Source: Eledone cirrhosa (taxonomy: Eukaryota). Taken from it: DNA of 64,000 bases. Made by a program: the position numbers and the translations under genes. Position 1 is the first letter of the stretch. Every line of letters begins with the position of its first letter. Of this stretch, positions 36,460 through 64,000 are shown piece by piece. The notes under the pieces were generated by a model. It was not told the DNA's origin and did no database searches. It was given only the letters and a program-made list of their open reading frames with translations. The stretch is from assembly GCA_964016885.1 (NCBI GenBank), contig OZ024744.1, positions 52,762,001-52,826,000 of the forward strand, given 5' to 3'.

Positions 36460-36645
36460 GTGAATTGGCAGTATCGGTAGAGGGTCGGACGCCATGCTTT
36501 GACGCATAGAGTTACGGCCCTTGCCATTCTGAGTTCAATCCCGCCGAGGTTGACTTTGCCTTTCATCCTTACGGGGTCGATAAAATAAAGTACCAGTAAT
36601 GTACTGGGTAATTGCTGGCCTTGTGCCAAAAATAGAAACAATTAT
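36460..36645 (+). mobile_element. tRNA-derived SINE, near full length
   Basis: TGGCAGTATCGG (A box), GAGTTCAATCCC (B box), body GACTTTGCCTTTCATCC..GGTCGATAAAATAAAGTACCAG, tail GGCCTTGTGCC..AGAAACAATT. Confidence 0.85.
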
Positions 36646-36736
36646 ATATGTATACACACATCATATATATAGTATAAATTCACAGATAAATACTAACTTC
36701 CACATTCACACACACGTTTGCATACATATATACAAT

Positions 36737-36772
<36 letters not shown>

Positions 36773-36774
36773 AG

Positions 36775-38843
36775 TAAGATGTATGGTAGGTCGTATGTGA
36801 ATCGCGATGATCACGTGGATAACACGACCACCATCTAAGCTGGGACCGACCCATACAGCAAACAAAGAGGGGACAGCCCTTCGCTTTTGACCAGTCGCGT
36901 GTGGACTTGGAGTTCGTAATATACCACCCCAGTCAAATCCACACTGGTGTTTTAACAATATAGCATGTAGACCAATACATCCTACGTAGCGAGACCTTGG
37001 ACTTGGAACCGGCAGGCTCGTCTATCGCGAAAGCGTACAACCCCTGAAACTAAAAGATCGAACGGACCTCATCCAGCAACCACTGGCTATTAGATCCACA
37101 GGTACATCTCCCAGAGAGTCCACGCAGATAATAGTGAACCCCAGGTGATCTATGAACGTTTAAACAAGACCAGCTGTGCCTGGAGCTATGCAGATGACTA
37201 CATTCGCATAATGGATATCGTGCCTGGAGCTATGCAGATGACTACATACGCATAATGGATATCGCGCCCACACGGTCACCAGTACTGTTCATCCTGTTGT
37301 ATGTATGTAAATATCCGTGCACGGGATATCCCTGAGTACATTTTCTTGACCATCAATTGTTAATCGATTGTTTGTTAATTAGGCAGGAATATACCATTGT
37401 GTCTGTGCTAATCCTATGTGTTGCTGTGTATGTGTAAAGTATAGCGCGGGATATCCCTGAGCTAATTTTGCCTGACTGTTAATAGTGTTTTGATTACTTG
37501 TTAATTGGGCAGGAATATATATTGTTATGTCTTTGTTGATCCTGTATCAATAATTTTGTGATAATTTTGTAATAATCTTGTGATAATTTTGTAATAATTT
37601 TATGATAATTTTATGATAATTTGATAATTTTGTAATAATTTTATGGTAATTTTATGATAATTAGATAATTTTGTAATGATTTTGTAATAATTTTTAATCC
37701 TGTATCAATAATTTTAGGATAATTTTTTGTGATAATACATCGTTTGATTACTGAAGCTACCTTATACCTTAACTAGGCAGGAATATATATTATTATGTCT
37801 TTGTTAATCCTGTATCAATAATTTTATAATAATTTTTTGTGATAATACATTGTTAGATTACTGAAGCTACCTTATACCTTCTTAAAAATACATTTTATAA
37901 TTATTGTCTTTTTGCTTATGTATTTTCTTATTTACCACTTTCTTTAATCTTGCCCAACTTGATAAACTCCTTGAATTGCTCCCTAATTAAATTACTTAAA
38001 TTACTTAGATTATTGTATCTATTATGCCTAAGTTGTATCTGTTGAAGCAGCCCTTTGAAAATTCCTCGGACATCCCAAAAACCGTAATTTTTAACTTTTA
38101 ATGTATAATTTTCCTCAATTCGTTTTTATATATATCCTTAAAGGCTCTCTAAAATTTTAATTCTTCGAAGGGTCTCTCGGAAGAAGTTCCTATTAAAAAT
38201 ATTAAAGGGGCCTTTTCTGAGAGAATTATAGAAGGCTCTCTGAATTAACCTCTAATTGATTAGTTTCTTTCAACTTAGTAGGAAATATCAAAACTTCGTA
38301 AGTTTTCTGAATTTTGTAAACGTGATCTCGGGGGAAGAAGGTTTTTTTCTTTCGGAAAAAAATTTTTTTTTCCTCTAGAAGGAATTTCATAGGAACTTTA
38401 TATATTTTTTTAGGGAAACTTTATATTTTTATTTTTTATTTTATTAGCCTCTTAATTTATTCTAGTCTAGTAGGTTTATTGGAGCCTGTAAGCTTTATGC
38501 ACTTATTGAGGGATTTTCTAAGGTGCTTCTACGGGACCCCAAGTCTTTTAGTTTACTGTTAATGCGTAAATTATATATTATTGTCTAATTTTTAAACTTC
38601 AATCCCTGACCCCGACAACGAATATAAAAGAGCCCCCTTAAAATATAGACACCAACTATACAAGCGGAGTTGCTGATGTATACCACAATTTCAAACTGCT
38701 AGCCTTGAGTGATACGTTGATGTTAACAATGATCTTACAATCACATGTTATATGCCTTGATAAGTCCCAACATGTGGTCGGACGAAACGGCTGTCGGCAA
38801 TAAACTTGTTATAATGTCATAATAGTTTCTTTGTTCTTTTTCA

Positions 38844-38848
<5 letters not shown>
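36775..38848 (+). mobile_element. Roughly 2.1-kb ORF-less element between (TA)n tracts, ending in a hammerhead
   Basis: Moderately GC-rich head, internal tandem duplications (43 bp at about 37176-37263; AGGCAGGAATAT repeats), and a terminal HHR. Confidence 0.55.
38753..38799 (+). ncRNA. Type I hammerhead ribozyme, U3-A8 core variant
   Basis: TGCC TTGATAA GTCC caacatgtggtc GGAC GAAAC GGCT GTC GGCA; all three stems pair. Confidence 0.75.
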
Positions 38849-38891
<43 letters not shown>

Positions 38892-39077
38892 TAGATAGAT
38901 ATGCAGAGGGTATATTTAATTTGTTAGGATTCAACCTTTCGGACACTCATTTGCATACTCACTCATAACTTTGTATTACCCTCAACAAATGTACTATCTC
39001 CACTATCCAGGAAGCTCCAACCGTTAAGGTTGTCTTTTTTCCGGGTATGTCAATATTTATTTATCAAACAAATCTGT

Positions 39078-45716: not shown

Positions 45717-46090
45717 GCTATTATGTTCCCTCCTGTTGTATTGTATGTCTATGCCATCTTTATTTAATCTGTTTATTTATTTATAATAATAATAATAATA
45801 CAAATAATAATAATAATAATAATAATAATGATTTCTTTATTAACCACAAGGGTTTACATAAAGTAGACATTAAGGACAGTGCAGGACAATGCAGGACGGT
45901 ACAAATGGGCATTTCTGCGTGTAAAAAACAAAAACAGAGGATGTAACAAAAATAACAATGAAAATAACAATGAAAAATTCCCCAATAGGGGGGAGACTTC
46001 GGAGGGACATTTGTGGTGAAAGCCCAGTAAAAAGCCACAATGACCCTGACCACCAAGGCAAGTGCCCTCTCCCAGTTTTCCACCTTTAAT

Positions 46091-49000
46091 TTACAAATAT
46101 ATACTCAGAGTAGGCCCATTCACTCGGGCCATTCTTGCTTCTCTCACCCATCTTTCAACAAAATGCTGGGAAGAGAGCACTTCCCTCTCTACTCTGATTT
46201 TCCTTTTCAAATGAAATTTGAAAAAGTCAATCAGAGCATCACCGAAGAGGTAAGTGCTCGTCTTCAGCCCTTTCAAACGTGTCCACCATACTATCTCTTT
46301 CACCATGGCCACCAGGCAGATAAAAACTGCCTGCCCTTCCCGGCTAAAGGAGGAGGGCGGGGCAATCCTCACGATGGACTCAGATGATAGCCGGATCCGT
46401 CCTAAACGCGACAGCAGGTGTTCGACATAAACCCACAAGTCAGCAATTTTCGGACACTGGACGAGTGCGTGCAGGACGGTTTCGTCGCCCTGCGTGCATC
46501 TCGGACATGCCCGGCTGACGGCACCTCCATGCCTGTAGAGTTTATCCCGAACTGGCAAGGCTCCTCGGTAGCACTGCCAGGCCAGAGATTTCTGGAAGTT
46601 TTCCATAGGCCCTGGCCCGAAAGTTCTTCCGAAGAGATTGGCTAGTTGATTTTCGTCGACGCATAGAGTTTCCCCAAGTACGTCGTCGCTCTTCCCCTCC
46701 ACTAATCCTCTATAGAACGCCGAGGTGGAGTTTCCACCGATCACATTGCCCGATTGGTCGAGGGCTGTGAGCGCCTGAAGACATTCCAGTCTCCAGGCGC
46801 TCCCTCTCGGTCTTCGCTTGACCCAGGACTGCAGCTCCGTCAAGGAAACGAGCTGGGGAAAAACGCGTCTAGCAAACGGCGACCACACCTGATCACCGTC
46901 GAGGAAGAGGTGGAGATGTCGTAGCCTGAGCGCGTGCCTGCGCATCATCAGCCACGGCATGCCCAGCCCTCCACGTAGCGGGTGTTGACAACAGATGGAC
47001 CGCCTGACCATCGGAGCACGTCCCTTCCACAAAAAGCGAAAGAGCAAACGCTCCAGCGCAGTCAGGCGAGGCTTAGGACAAGGTACGACGGTTAGGCGGT
47101 AGCAGATGACAGACGCGATGTACGCGTTAGCCACCTCCGCTCGACCTTTCAGGGATAGCTTCCTCTCCGCCCATTTCTGGGTGAGAGAAGCCACCCTGCT
47201 CGTCACCTCGTCCCAGTTTTTGTCCGTCTGGAGGTCCGGACCGAACCAGACCCCTAGCAATTTAACCGGTCCGTCCGTCCAGCGCCCGACGACGCTGTTG
47301 GACGGCATGGACCTGCCTCTCCAGGTGCCGAGCTGCAGGCCCACTGACTTTTCCTGGTTGATCATTGCTCCTGTCACCGCTTCGTATTCTCTTAGTGTAG
47401 TGCCGATCGCCTCGATGTGTTTGGCGTTCGACACCACTACGGTGACATCGTCCGCATATGCTGACACGGATCTTCCGCATCCTAGTTCGCGCGGGACTCC
47501 CCTCAACGTCTCCAGTTTGTGCAGTAATGGCTCGAGCGTCAATACGTACAAGAGGGACGAGAGGGGACATCCTTGGCGGACCGAGCGCATGATGTTGAAC
47601 GGTTCCGACAGGTGACCGTTCACTCTCACCACAGAGCAGATGTCGCTGTGCATGGCAGCGATCCAGCCTCTGAAGACGGGCCCAAAGCCAGCCACCCTCA
47701 GGACTGCCGCTAGGTAACGATGGTCGACCCTATCGAAAGCTTTCGACTGATCTAAATTGATCAAGGACCCACCCGTGCCAGGTTCCCTAGCTACCCTCTC
47801 TACGATGTATCGCATGAGGTGGAGGTTGTCGTGGATGGATCTGTCGGGAATGGCGCATGTCTGCGCCTCTCCCACCAGACCACCAACGACAAGCGCCAAC
47901 CTCTTTGCTAGCACCTTGGCCAAAATCTTAAACTCTGTGTTTAGCAGAGTTATGGGCCGGAAATTTTCTATGTTATCCCCCTTGTTCGGATCCTTTCTCA
48001 GCAGTGCCACCGCTCCTCGGCTCACAGAACTGGGAATTCTCCCGTTCTGTTGCCAGTTGCAGTAGACGTCCGCCAAGAGGCCTCCGAACAAGTCTGGCAT
48101 CTGTACGTAAAGTTCATAGGGCAGACCATCCAAATAGGCGATTCACCCCTTGTGCAGCCAGTCATTGCCTCCCTTACTTCAGCGGCTGTTATCGGCTTTT
48201 CGCAACACTTCGCCTCAGTGGCCGAGAGCCGCGGCAGTCCGTCGAGGTAGACACTAAAGTCCATCCCTCTACCCGGCCCACCGCTGCCTCCGAACAGCTG
48301 AGCGAAGTGTCGCTGAAAAGCTTCACACATTTGCCCGGGATCGAGTAGCATGCGCCCGTCGTGGTCCACCAAAGACCGGATCGTGGCTTTGTTGCCACGA
48401 CGCGCCTCCGCCACTCGGGCCCATTGAACGGCTTTCGTCCCCTCGTGTCTGAGAGCACGCACCCTTGCTCTGACAACGCAGCCTTCGTGCTTTGCATTGA
48501 AGAATTGGTCAAGGGCCAATTTCGACGCAAGCACGTCGGTCGCAATGCCTTTGCTAAGCGCCTCGTCTAATTTTCTAACTAGTTCTCCCTCTGTTCTATT
48601 TTTCTCTATTGCTAAAGCCTTACTAAACCTAATCGATTCTATTCTAATCGCTCTTTTCAGAGCAAACCACCACTTGTTGTTGACGATGGCCCCCGTCAAA
48701 GCCCGCTTAACTAGTTCGCTAATCCGGTCTCTGTAGGCCTTGCGCGCTGGTAAGGACGCGTTTAGCTTCCAGTAGCCGGGTCCTCGTCTATGAAGCCTAT
48801 CTAGGTCAAGCACACAGATCACGAATTTGTGGTCCGTGTAGCTGACTATCTTGAATTGTGGACAGCCTATGCTAGACCTATCTATTTCCCTACAAAATAC
48901 TCTATCTAGATATGATCTGGATGACCCTATGCGGTTTGTCCAAGTCCACATTGGCACATTCGGGAAATCCAATCGGTACCTCTCAGACAGTTCAAAACGC

Positions 49001-49509
49001 CTGAGCAGGTTGGTGAGGCTCTTGCACCCTCCACCCCTATCCGCTAATCCCACACAGTCCCAGCGTGCATCTAAGATCCCGTTCCAGTCGCCCACTAACA
49101 CTAAAGAGCGGGACGTTCCAAGAAAGGTCTCCAGACGCCGGAAGAAATCAGGCCGCCCTGCTCCTGTCGGGGCATAGACGGCCACTAGCCTGAAAGCTTG
49201 CCCGTCTCCGCTGGTCACGTCCAGCACCACCAGCTTACCCTCTGGGTCCAGGAAGATGGCCCGTATGGCGAGATCCAAACCTCTCCGAAAAAGCACAGCA
49301 ACTCCTCCACCCGATCCAGGACGGCTGGGAGATGCGTACACATCGTAGCCGCCGAAGATCGGTGCGAAGGCCCGTGCTTCGGAGATTCTGGTCTCGCTGA
49401 TGGCCACTACATCTATGTTTAGTGACCTGAGGTCGTTGAGCAGGTGACCCTGCTTCCATGACGACCCCAAGCCACGCGCATTTATGCTGCCTATTCTGAG
49501 TGAGGTCAT
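46091..49509 (-). CDS. ORF2: APE endonuclease, reverse transcriptase and C-terminal zinc finger (1-nt frameshift at about 48134)
   Basis: SINARGL, ISETR, GDWN, YLDR, TDHK; FRPITLLN, DQSKAFD, QGCPLS, YADD; CPRC..ETVLHALVQC. The SP(G)LDGL motif is broken by a deletion. Confidence 0.93.
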
Positions 49510-49544
49510 GTTTAAAATAGAGTGGAAAAGATGGGAAAGACCAC

Positions 49545-51681
49545 TTACCGTACTTTTGGTAGAGGAGGGATGGTTTTTACATCCCTTTTCACTTGATCGT
49601 CTGGTGAAGGGACCGTTGAATCGTCCCTTCGGCTGGTCGTCGGCTCTTCTAAGAGAATGTCTGAATATACTCTTCGATTGATGGTTCCTCCTAGGTCCCT
49701 GAAATCACCAACTGCGTTGGGGAATTTCGTTTTAATGTTTGTGTATTGTTTCTGTGCTATTTTTAGCAGTCTTATGTTAGTTGGCGTTTTGATTGGTGCT
49801 GGTATTATGTAGTCCTGTTGTGAAATGTCTGTGTGTTCAATTATGTAAGTCATTAGTTTCTTGTTGTGTCTGTTTATTGCCGTGCATTTGTTTTTCTGGG
49901 GGTGGGGTGTGGTTCTGCTATTTTCTTGTCGTTGTTGCTGGGTGTGTGTGTTTTGTTGTTGTGTTTGCGATGTTGGTGCTTGTGGTGGTGGTGTTGAAGG
50001 TGTTGTTGGCGGTGGGGTTGTCGCCGGTGGTGATGGTGGTGCTGGTGTGGGTGGTGATGGTGTTGGTGGTGTTGCTGCTGTGGGTCTCTTTGCAGTAGAC
50101 TTTACCCTTTTCTCATTTCTTTCCTCCCTTTTCAAAGGCGACGATGCGCTGCTTCTGCGTTTGTGCCTTCTTGCGACCTTTTGCCATCCCTCTCCCACCT
50201 CACACTCCATGTCTGATTCTGTAAGGTCGGGGAGGGGTACCAGCTCCACTCTTTCACTTGTTGTTGTTGGTGATGTTTGCACTGGAGTCTCTGTTGCAGC
50301 TGCATTTGGTATTGCTGTTGTTGTTGTTAATATTTCCACTGCTGCTGCTGTCTTTGATTTCCGTGGAGTGGGTATGGGTGCCACGGACCTATCGTTCCTG
50401 GTTGCCGCTTGTCTTGTTGCTGGTAGCCGTGGAGCCGGATTCGGAAGGAGGGGGGTGTTCTCCTTTCTCAGGGTCTTCTCGTTGCAGAAGGCCCTGAGGT
50501 GAGTCTTCGATCCACAGCGAAAGCATTTCGGGCGTTTGCCCTCAACACTTATGGGCAGTTGAGTGCCGTTATCGAAGTCTATCACATCCGGGATAGCTTC
50601 GATGCACTCCTGGTTGGTTTGGATTAGCATCTCAATGGAGGAGCCGACCCAATCTTCTCTTACTTTTTTCTGTACTTGCAGTACAGTTGTTTTGTCCTCG
50701 ATTCCGACGAGGACAGACGCGGCCAGCCAAGAAGGGGCCATTCCGGGGGGGGGGGGGGGCGTGGGTCAGTTTGACCCTCACAATTTTTTGCCCGCAGTAG
50801 GAGGGCACCAACACCATTTCCTCGCTCCTTAGGGTCACTACTGATTGGGCCTTTGCCTCCTGGGGTGTGGCAAAAAGTACGTCTACGGTGGCGTATTTTT
50901 TGCCTCGGGTGATGTGCGTTTTCCTCTGCCACACAGACCCCAAGGCTTTTTGTATTTGGGCCTCTGTGGCTCTTTCCACCCTACGGGATTTTGTACTTAC
51001 TGTACGGTACGTGACCGTACAGTGCTCTTGGGTTTCGAAAAAAATTTTCGCTGCCTTGCAGATTGCTCGGTGTCCGTTCTTTGTCACCATCTTCTTCGCT
51101 TCCTCTAATTCCTCATTTGTTATGAGGATTGTTTCCAAGTTTTTAGCAATACCTGCAAATGAGATTGGTTTTTCTCTGCTGTTGTTGTTGTCGTCAGAGC
51201 TGCTGGTACTTTTGTTGTTGCTGCAGGTACTACGACTACTGCCTCCGCCGCTGTTGCTGTGGTTGTTGTTGGTGTTGCTGCTGCTAATGCTGTTGTTGTT
51301 TATGCTGCTGGTGATGCTGTTGCGGCTGCTACTGTTGTTTTCATTGTCACTGTTGCTGTTGTTATTACGGCTGCTACTGCTATTATTCCTGACGTCAGAC
51401 GAATGAACTGGGTTTTCGTATTTCCCGCACACCTGTTTCGTCGCTGTCGTCGTCGTCGTGGAGAAACCTTGCACGCTTTGCACAAGACTTTTCTTTTCTT
51501 TCGTCGCTTGCGAAAGAGAAGGGAGGGAGAGAGACACATTTAAAGAAGGGAGGGAGAGAGACAATCTTCTCTCTGCTGTAGTGATGATTGAGGAAGAAGA
51601 AGACGGAATGAGTGGGAGTGACGTATGAAATTTCTTTTTCGTAGCCATGTTTTTTTGTTTAAAATGAAATGTTGGGTACAA
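49545..51681 (-). CDS. ORF1: gag-like nucleic-acid-binding protein (frameshift in the G15 run at 50745-50759)
   Basis: CCHC knuckle CFRCGSKTHLRAFC, low-complexity S/N and P/T regions, directly upstream of ORF2. The start codon is uncertain. Confidence 0.8.
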
Positions 51682-62594: not shown

Positions 62595-64000
62595 TGTTTC
62601 TTTATTAGCCACAGGGGCACAGAAGAAGGGGACAAATACAAAGGGGGAAGTTTACATACAATAAAAACGTGTAAAATGTTATCACAAATGTAATTTAAAA
62701 AGTTAGTCGATTTTCCCCAATAGGGGAGACAGTTTATATGGGTAACACCCCCGAAAATATGTGCAACCCTCATCTCCAGGAGTACGAAGAGTTTGTACTC
62801 CTTTCCTCTCCTCCTCCTTTTCCTCAACCTACAGGCTGATATAGAGAGAAGGCCCATTCACTCGGGCCATTCTCGCCACTTTCACCCACATTTCATAAAA
62901 CTTGCTGGGGTACAGCACCTCTCTCTCCATCCTGATTCTTCTTCCAAAGTGGTATTTGAAAAAAAGAATCAGTTGTTGGCCGGAGAGAAAGGTGTCTGAC
63001 CTCAGCCCTTTCAACCTTGTCCACCATACAACCTCTTTCGCCATAGCTATCGCACAAAGGAAAACCGCCTCTCCTTCGTTTTTGAAGGAGGGTGGTGGTT
63101 TGATCATGACAATGGACTCGGCGGTCAACCGGATTGTTCCCACCCGCGACAGTAGTCGTTCTACATAGCCCCACAGGTCAGTGACGCCCGGGCAGAGTAT
63201 GAATGCGTGCGCGACGGTTTCTTCGTCTCGCACGCACCTCGGACAGATCTTTTTTGCAGGGTCTCTGCCCGGGCGCCCATGTCTGTAGAGCTTGTCTCGA
63301 ACTGGTAGAGCTCCTCGGTAGCACTGCCAGGCCAGGGACTTTTGGAAGTTGTCCATCGGTCCCGGGCGGAAGGTCCTACCGAACAGACTGGCCAGTTCAT
63401 CTTCCTCTACGCCTAGAGTTTCACCGAGCGCGTCGTCGCACTTGCTGCGGATCAACCCTCTATACAATGACGAAGTGGCGTCTCGACTGATCGCCAGGTC
63501 CGCCTGCCAGAGGGCTGTGAGCGCCTGACCACATTCGATGTGCCAGTCGCCCATTTTCCTCGGTTTTTGGTTGACCCGAGACGAGTCGTGGGAAGGCTCG
63601 CCTCACGAACGGGGCCCACACCGTGAGGAATACGTAGAGATGCCGCAGCCGGAGCGCGTGTTTGCGCATCGTCAACCACGGCATCCCCAGCCCTCCGTTA
63701 GAAGGGTGTTGGCAGCAGATGGATCTTCTCACCAAAGGAGCCCGCCTCTTCCAAAGGAATTGGAAGAGCACGCTTTCCATTTTGGCGGCGTTTTGGCTGG
63801 ACAAGGCACGACGGTCAAGCGGTAGTAGATGGCGGACGCTATAAAAGTGTTCGCCACCTCCGCTCGTCCTTTCAAGGATAGTTTGCACTCGGCCCACTTC
63901 TGGGTGAGTGCAAAGACCTTGGCCGTCACTTCGTTCCAGTTCTCCACCTGGAGGTCCGGACCAAACCAGACCCCGAGCAGCTTTACCGGTCCTTCCGTCC
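62595..64000 (-). mobile_element. 3' part of a second Tx1-like family, tailing into (TCTA)n; continues beyond the window
   Basis: Homologous to the ORF2 C-terminus (FQKSLAWQCYRGALPVRDKL, CPRC..ETVAHAFILC), with frameshifts. AATAAAGAAACA is followed by the (GATA)n tract at 62509-62594. Confidence 0.9.

What the first reader, a model, noticed from the sequence alone, without database searches (positions are those of the whole stretch)
36775..38848. 2-kb ORF-less element ending in a U3-A8 variant hammerhead
Seen: TGCC-TTGATAA-GTCC..GGAC-GAAAC-GGCT-GTC-GGCA. All stems pair, stem III ACGGCUGU is self-complementary with wobbles, and the core reads UUGAUAA instead of CUGAUGA. Known: C3 and G8 form a tertiary Watson-Crick pair, and U3-A8 is a rare compensatory variant. 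Inference: a double change that keeps the pair suggests selection for activity, and searches for CUGANGA would miss it. The upstream 2 kb is non-coding with internal duplications, so this may be an undescribed non-autonomous retroelement family inserting into (TA)n.
Basis: partly seen in the sequence, partly recalled or inferred. Interest (0 to 1): 0.72.

Follow-up and report, generated by a model that had tools for sequence, protein, structure and literature searches.

The report
Truncated Penelope element, variant hammerhead
This 2-kb piece is the gene-less tail end of a common, protein-coding jumping gene whose predicted self-cutting RNA carries a rare but already known base-pair swap, and whose two fixed insertion ends each sit just before a small conserved RNA hairpin that likely tells the copying enzyme where to start.

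Summary
The motif is real, and U3-A8 is the family state: 859 exact genome matches, against 5 C3-A8 and 0 C3-G8. The element is not non-autonomous. It is a 5'-truncated copy (3' UTR only, plus a 47-bp inverted end) of a Hydra-clade Penelope-like element whose full copies encode an 863-aa RT + GIY-YIG protein. Two sister families carry the homologous hammerhead with C3-G8, so the swap is true covariation. U3-A8 is already published, including in Penelope-like elements (PMC4209133, PMC3088659). Cleavage was not tested. Unusual features: a 2.2-2.7 kb 3' UTR, and two fixed 3' ends about 107 nt apart, one long and one short in 25 of 28 two-ended insertions. Each end lies a few bases before a GCUC-helix-bulge-GAGC hairpin that covaries across Hydra elements of other organisms, likely the RT start signal. 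I found no paper on this hairpin. The scan had already noted it on other DNA of this genome (e1-8668132), and U3-A8 at Penelope ends in another genome (e1-9529720).

The parts
36722..36772 (.). (TA)n target microsatellite, left side
   Evidence: sequence
36770..36816 (-). inverted, 5'-truncated piece of the family's long 3' end (tail); shares 1 nt (T 36816) with the body; first bases overlap the TA run
36816..38850 (+). 5'-truncated body: distal ~2 kb of the 3' UTR/pseudo-LTR of an autonomous Hydra-clade Penelope-like element (family A), ending at the short 3' end
37176..37263 (+). 44-nt tandem duplication
37302..37880 (+). dispersed 110-268-nt-spaced duplications and an 11-nt AT-rich array (37549-37698)
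38155..38230 (+). inferred transcription-start zone: upstream pseudo-LTRs of 8 of 16 read-through places begin 527-602 nt before U3 (approximate mapping)
   Evidence: inference
38753..38799 (+). minimal type I hammerhead motif with U3-A8 core (38757, 38762), palindromic stem III (38787-38794), predicted cleavage after 38795
38799..38804 (+). AATAAA followed by a U-rich stretch; possible polyadenylation signal, also part of an extended stem I
   Evidence: sequence; untested
38847..38902 (.). (TA)n target microsatellite, right side

Best explanation
The region is a 5'-truncated, two-ended insertion of an autonomous Hydra-clade Penelope-like retrotransposon into a (TA)n run, likely made when the element's RT/GIY-YIG protein nicked both target strands and started cDNA at two internal sites of a read-through RNA, each site likely specified by an adjacent bulged hairpin. 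One strand was copied about 2 kb from the short site, the other about 47 nt from the long site, and the two were joined head to head (inferred). The hammerhead just upstream of both sites is a family-wide U3-A8 covariant of the canonical C3-G8 pair. It is predicted to be a weakly active, dimer- or protein-assisted ribozyme that trims the RNA but is probably not needed for insertion. Shown: anatomy, parent ORF, two fixed ends, hairpin conservation and covariation, 3-8 covariation. Inferred: hairpin function, two-strand priming, cleavage.
For: Parent ORF: 877-codon open frame (863 aa from Met) with YRDD, DKT, CxCx5C, CxxC and CxH; pseudo-LTR-ORF-pseudo-LTR units of 5.2-5.9 kb. Ends: of 114 distinct places, 43 short, 44 long, 18 read through into the ORF, 6 at a locus edge, 3 other; 81 of 87 short/long ends abut (TA)n; 25 of 28 inverted two-ended insertions have one long and one short end, the window among them. 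Hairpins begin 98 and 204 nt after U3, ends at 94 and about 201; the same holds in sister families B and C with 3 and 5 terminal ends seen. Other organisms: the strict hairpin is in 43 of 55 Hydra-type leaders (shuffles 0.14 in all, ORF interiors 0, reverse strand 5); with no pairing required, 29 of 49 leaders have two; inner pairs 85, 65 and 60 of 93, against partner-shuffle maxima of 72, 52 and 53. 3-8 pair: B and C have C3-G8 at the homologous site; 57 hammerheads at 84 outside ends give 55 C-G (one counted twice), 2 G-C and no mismatch although any base was allowed. A lizard Penelope-like protein nicks and extends both strands, starts RT at two internal sites that define the tail, is predicted to be a dimer, and has a protein-assisted hammerhead dispensable in vitro (PMC11167929).
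Against: No cleavage or RT assay. [quoted passage not shown] Distant family D has a fixed short end but no clear GAGC hairpin by eye. 12 of 55 outside leaders fail the strict hairpin test. In the outside end-mapping only 15 of 87 rows fall 0-6 nt before a hairpin; the table is noisy with (TA)n matches. The 93 hairpins are not phylogenetically independent. Loci were chosen by similarity to the window, not at random. The first search listed about 1,200 candidates but scored only 40.
Confidence: 0.75

Rival explanations
1. A non-autonomous, ORF-less family (retrozyme-like) of about 2 kb, mobilised in trans.
For: The window copy has no ORF; many copies are short.
Against: Position 36816 is not a shared boundary: all 29 other copies examined continue upstream in family sequence to variable points, and long ones run into an intact ORF. 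The unit lengths are those of ORF-bearing elements.
Confidence: 0.03
2. Same element, but the U3-A8 hammerhead is catalytically dead or irrelevant and persists as an inherited or protein-bound structure.
For: The monomer does not fold as a hammerhead. Metazoan PLE hammerheads cleave poorly in vitro (PMC4209133) and are dispensable for insertion in vitro. Copies with an intact upstream pseudo-LTR must derive from uncleaved or religated RNA.
Against: Only Watson-Crick combinations are seen at 3-8 across families. Subfamily variation is confined to N7 and loop II. U3-A8 ribozymes are stated to be active in vitro (PMC3088659).
Confidence: 0.2
3. The twin hairpins act in DNA or in another step (endonuclease recognition that resolves a tandem intermediate, RNP assembly, translation), and do not set the RT start.
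For: PMC8557442 attributes tails to EN-mediated resolution. The Drosophila virilis EN needed the tail sequence for recognition (as cited in PMC11167929). Genomic ends cannot tell these steps apart.
Against: A fixed 2-nt 3' bulge, G-U pairs and a freely covarying helix indicate single-stranded structure on the sense strand. In the lizard element the ends equal the RT start sites.
Confidence: 0.22

Closest known systems
Hydra clade of C-terminal-EN Penelope-like elements (Craig et al. 2021, PMC8557442; includes Hydra-1_Obim)
   Same: Single ORF with RT then GIY-YIG; DKT, RW[KR], CxCx5C, CxxC/CxH, no CCHH; (TA)n targets; 3' hammerhead; inverted 5'-truncated copy; tail at one end.
   Different: Unit 5.2-5.9 kb with a 2.3-2.7 kb 3' UTR (published: generally under 3 kb in all); U3-A8 core (26 of 26 Hydra rows in File S2 are C3-G8); tail about 107 nt rather than 30-40; protein differs from Hydra-1_Obim by eye; twin hairpins not mentioned in main text or supplement.
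U3-A8 minimal hammerheads of Schistosoma mansoni Cercyon PLEs (Cervera and De la Pena 2014, PMC4209133)
   Same: Same core covariation, in pseudo-LTRs of a PLE, high copy, palindromic stem III.
   Different: Different host and family; here there are intact masters and C3-G8 sister families with a homologous ribozyme as a natural control.
Poseidon PAc of Anolis carolinensis (Frangieh et al. 2024, PMC11167929)
   Same: Two internal RT start sites define the tail; both strands of AT-rich DNA are nicked and extended; hammerhead upstream of the start sites.
   Different: PAc starts lie 111-118 nt inside the ORF in an AC-rich stem-loop. Here they lie in the leader, about 107 nt apart, each before its own hairpin, with TAT microhomology to the target.
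Retrozymes (non-autonomous hammerhead retroelements; PMC4918200, search listing only)
   Same: Non-coding DNA with a hammerhead, many copies.
   Different: This piece is a truncation of a coding element and has no fixed non-coding unit.

Membership tests
Penelope-like elements (EN+) | single ORF with RT and GIY-YIG endonuclease | tested here: met
   P0001: YRDD at 367, VVY...YVG at 755; 650 homologues at E<=1e-10, two of the 120 listed carrying PF01541. Pfam scan of P0001 itself gave 0 families. The window copy lacks the ORF.
Penelope-like elements (EN+) | pseudo-LTRs, inverted 5'-truncated copies, tail at one end | tested here: met
Penelope-like elements (EN+) | hammerhead in the pseudo-LTR | tested here: met
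   (motif; activity untested)
Hydra clade | DKT in place of DKG; RWK motif | tested here: met
   DKT in 3 of 3 family-A proteins; RWR in 2 of 3, RCR in L067
Hydra clade | CxCx5C linker, no CCHH, CxxC and CxH around conserved E and N | tested here: met
   one Cys only between VVY and YVG; the CxxCxxE pattern missed in 1 of 3
Hydra clade | (TA)n insertion preference | tested here: met
   81 of 87 ends
Hydra clade | generally short (<3 kb); descriptive, not diagnostic | tested here: not met
   units of 5.2-5.9 kb
Hydra clade | RT phylogeny with the published reference set | tested here: inconclusive
   The tree used 8 own proteins and the first 40 of 120 listed homologues, without published Hydra, Neptune or Poseidon references; the match to Fig. 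S7 rows was by eye.
Non-autonomous retrozyme/SINE-like family | fixed non-coding unit without own RT | tested here: not met
Hammerhead ribozyme | core consensus and three stems | tested here: met
   met with the documented U3-A8 covariation; below the Rfam gathering score
Hammerhead ribozyme | self-cleavage after N17 | not testable with these tools
   needs an assay

The most novel reading that the evidence does not exclude
Hydra-clade Penelope elements carry a clade-wide pair of bulged RNA hairpins (GCUC-helix-UN-GAGC) that dock the two subunits of a dimeric RT/endonuclease, so that each nicked target strand is primed at its own hairpin. This would explain the Penelope tail and the inverted two-ended insertions. 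This family adds an active U3-A8 ribozyme and a multi-kilobase 3' UTR.
Probability: 0.5. Interest if true: 0.72.

Novelty: new variant of a known kind. Interest (0 to 1): 0.48.

Why it matters
The U3-A8 swap alone is a modest extension: it is known in nature and in Penelope-like elements. It does show that CUGANGA descriptors miss at least two families here (859 and 25 exact matches), and it comes with intact masters and C3-G8 sisters as controls. The larger point is mechanistic. How Penelope RTs pick two internal start sites, and why the tail is at one end only, is open. A small covarying hairpin before each end, with a near-strict one-long-one-short rule, makes that directly testable with the published in vitro assay and would define a minimal cis-signal for a (TA)n-targeting retroelement.

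Tried and rejected
Rfam: nothing at gathering score in the window; no family for the hairpin in 5 loci. Pfam: 0 families for P0001. Viral contigs: no relatives. First metagenome scan with a single protein: none. Expression: no RNA holder listed. Contigs of runs X1 and X2 (one sample) cover the region, but their depth is no copy number and was not used. DNA alignments A1 and A3 had mis-set coordinates for some rows and were not used. The apparent circular permutation in L067 (body stops about where the front piece starts) was not taken as evidence of a circle: a different Penelope-type RT interrupts it, the rest was not found in the next 9.9 kb, and front pieces often start in that zone. No nucleotide similarity among the three long UTRs, and no convincing ORF in them. 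Whether U3-A8 arose once or twice (families A and D) could not be decided: A, B and C are unresolved and D was not in the tree. The primary kinetic paper on 3-8 exchanges and one review were not held, so U3-A8 activity rests on the statement in PMC3088659. Literature searches for the variant and the hairpin; none listed a paper describing the twin hairpin (library limited to open papers).

Full report
Observation. The hammerhead-like motif is at 38753-38799 as described, with U3 at 38757, A8 at 38762 and the predicted cut after 38795. Stem III is self-complementary over 8 positions, -9.7 kcal/mol as a duplex, while the monomer hammerhead fold is 4 kcal/mol above the minimum. The region has no long frame, has internal duplications and lies between two (TA)n runs. 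The host is a 3.0-Gb animal genome. I take it to be an octopus or relative; this rests on recall of a neighbouring SINE and on a named Argonauta homologue, not on a direct test.

Is U3-A8 the family state? With positions 3, 7 and 8 left free, a 35-nt pattern has 363 exact matches, none with a base other than U at 3 and none with U3 and a base other than A at 8. A 19-nt pattern gives 859 U3-A8 matches, and its C3 version gives 5, all C3-A8, none C3-G8. In 91 aligned copies (deduplicated by context only) U3 is in 91 and A8 in 89; subfamily-level variation inside the motif is confined to N7 and two loop-II positions. These copies descend from a few masters, so they are not independent tests.

What the element is. 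The first 47 bp are the reverse complement of a 3' tail that other copies carry beyond the window's right end. Position 36816 is a truncation point: all 29 other copies examined continue upstream in family sequence to variable points. [quoted passage not shown] Four of 58 genome matches span essentially the whole protein without a stop. Full units read pseudo-LTR, ORF, 3' UTR, pseudo-LTR, with 5.2-5.9 kb between the two hammerheads. The motifs match the Hydra clade as defined in PMC8557442 (section 11): DKT, RW[KR], CxCx5C, CxxC and CxH, no CCHH, (TA)n targets. That paper already lists one octopus Hydra family of 2.5 kb with a C3-G8 ribozyme (supplement S1, S2); its protein differs from this one by eye. 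A formal tree with the published references was not made.

Covariation at 3-8. Two sister families in the same genome (about 58-61% protein identity) form one clade with this family (100/100, unresolved inside). Both carry the ribozyme at the same place with C3-G8 (one of five family-B copies has a single U3 change), and family C shares the start of stem II. In 100 Hydra-type loci from metagenome and genome collections, 84 ORF ends had enough flank; 57 gave a hammerhead within 1,200 nt with any base allowed at 3 and 8: 55 C-G (one counted twice), 2 G-C, no U-A and no mismatch. A distant family D in this genome also has U3-A8, 25 of 25 matches. So the pair covaries and U3-A8 is rare in the clade. 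It is not new. PMC4209133 (parts 1-2 of 4 read) reports about 1,300 U3-A8 hits found through the Schistosoma Cercyon element, and PMC3088659 (passages) reports natural U3-A8 examples and says such ribozymes are active in vitro.

Long 3' UTR. The ribozyme lies 2.2-2.7 kb after the ORF in families A, B and C, against 47-521 nt in the 57 outside cases (27 ends had no hit, and a long UTR is not excluded there). The three UTRs share no detectable sequence and encode nothing convincing. Their copy-variable duplications suggest growth by template slippage (inference). The function of the long UTR is unexplained.

Two ends and two hairpins. Of 114 distinct places, 43 end about 94 nt after U3, 44 end about 201 nt after it, 18 read on into the ORF, 6 touch a locus edge and 3 end elsewhere; 81 of the 87 classed ends abut (TA)n. 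Of 28 inverted two-ended insertions, 25 have one long and one short end, 1 has two short ends with identical flanks, and 2 have an unclassed end. For 25 of 26 at even odds my arithmetic gives about 4e-7. The window is one of the 25. In read-through copies each end is followed within a few bases by GCUC, a short helix, a 2-nt bulge and GAGC, at +98 and +204; B and C show the same, and the motif is essentially absent elsewhere on the sense strand of six units (one of the six lacked the exact motif). In outside Hydra loci the strict hairpin is in 43 of 55 leaders, against 0.14 in shuffles, 0 in ORF interiors and 5 on the reverse strand. With no pairing demanded, 29 of 49 leaders have two, 13 one and 7 none. 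The first three inner pairs hold in 85, 65 and 60 of 93 distinct sequences at a 2-nt bulge, above slid registers and above all 5,000 partner shuffles, with four or more pair types at positions 2-3 (the sequences are related, so this is not a probability). By eye it is also in four of six published Hydra consensi, one degenerate (supplement S7), but the words hairpin and stem-loop do not occur in that supplement, nor hairpin in the main text. I saw the motif and only then found that the scan had noted it on other DNA of this genome.

Mechanism. PMC11167929 (parts 1-2 of 4 read) shows for a lizard Penelope-like protein that both strands of AT-rich DNA are nicked and extended, that RT starts at two internal RNA sites that define the tail, that the protein is a predicted dimer, and that the hammerhead is protein-assisted and dispensable for insertion in vitro. 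I infer the same here, with each hairpin positioning one RT and a TAT microhomology pairing the RNA to the nicked (TA)n. The window would be a long cDNA from the short site and a 47-nt cDNA from the long site, joined over 1 nt. The template must extend past both hairpins, so it is uncleaved read-through, circular, or copied by a strand transfer. Upstream pseudo-LTRs begin 527-602 nt before U3 in 8 of 16 read-through places (4 of the others are internal tandem breaks, 1 is at an edge), which hints at a defined RNA 5' end and favours a linear template, weakly. The ribozyme likely trims the RNA as a dimer or with protein help. None of this was assayed.

Verdict. This is a new family of a known clade with a known core variant, an unusual UTR, and a clade-wide hairpin pair that I could not find in print (searches; listings only, except for the papers named; passages of PMC7151607 and PMC3884650 were also read). 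The supplements of PMC11167929 (RNA folds, Fig. S2) and PMC4209133 were not read and may bear on the hairpin claim. Interest 0.48.

Noticed in passing
L131/L132 (G000:C2:317619646 and 317622081) and 23 other places: A distant Hydra-type family D (endonuclease region 27-46% identical to P0001, 3' UTR about 300 nt) also has a U3-A8 hammerhead-like motif, 25 of 25 matches, with a perfect palindromic stem III and a weak stem I.
   Followed up: partly
L144 (+ strand, 199 nt after the ORF) and L166 (257 nt after the ORF): Two outside Hydra-type loci have a G3-C8 core, the third Watson-Crick option; L144 has good stems, L166 a weak stem II.
   Followed up: no
L220-L241: 22 loci of this animal retroelement clade sit in bacterial genome bins, several from symbiont or host-associated samples; likely host DNA contamination.
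   Followed up: no
L067 oriented 8793 onward, into L073: A full family-A copy is cut off by a different Penelope-type element (RT + GIY-YIG, not Hydra-like by eye), and is preceded by family D: three PLE families adjoin.
   Followed up: partly
window 36464-36640 and 165-802: A very high-copy SINE-like repeat lies just left of the element and in tandem near the window start; recalled as an octopus SINE, not tested.
   Followed up: no
window 38799-38840: AATAAA plus a U-rich stretch directly after the ribozyme; family B has AATAAA at the same place, family C has AGTAAA.
   Followed up: no
L118-L119 (G000:C2:219149299-219162226) and L121-L122 (C1:259598560-259605837): Head-to-tail arrays of two to three full units of family A, possible donors of read-through RNA.
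   Followed up: no
window 46000-51000 and 63000-64000: GC-rich stretches (0.50-0.58) in an AT-rich window; possibly exons or LINE bodies.
   Followed up: no
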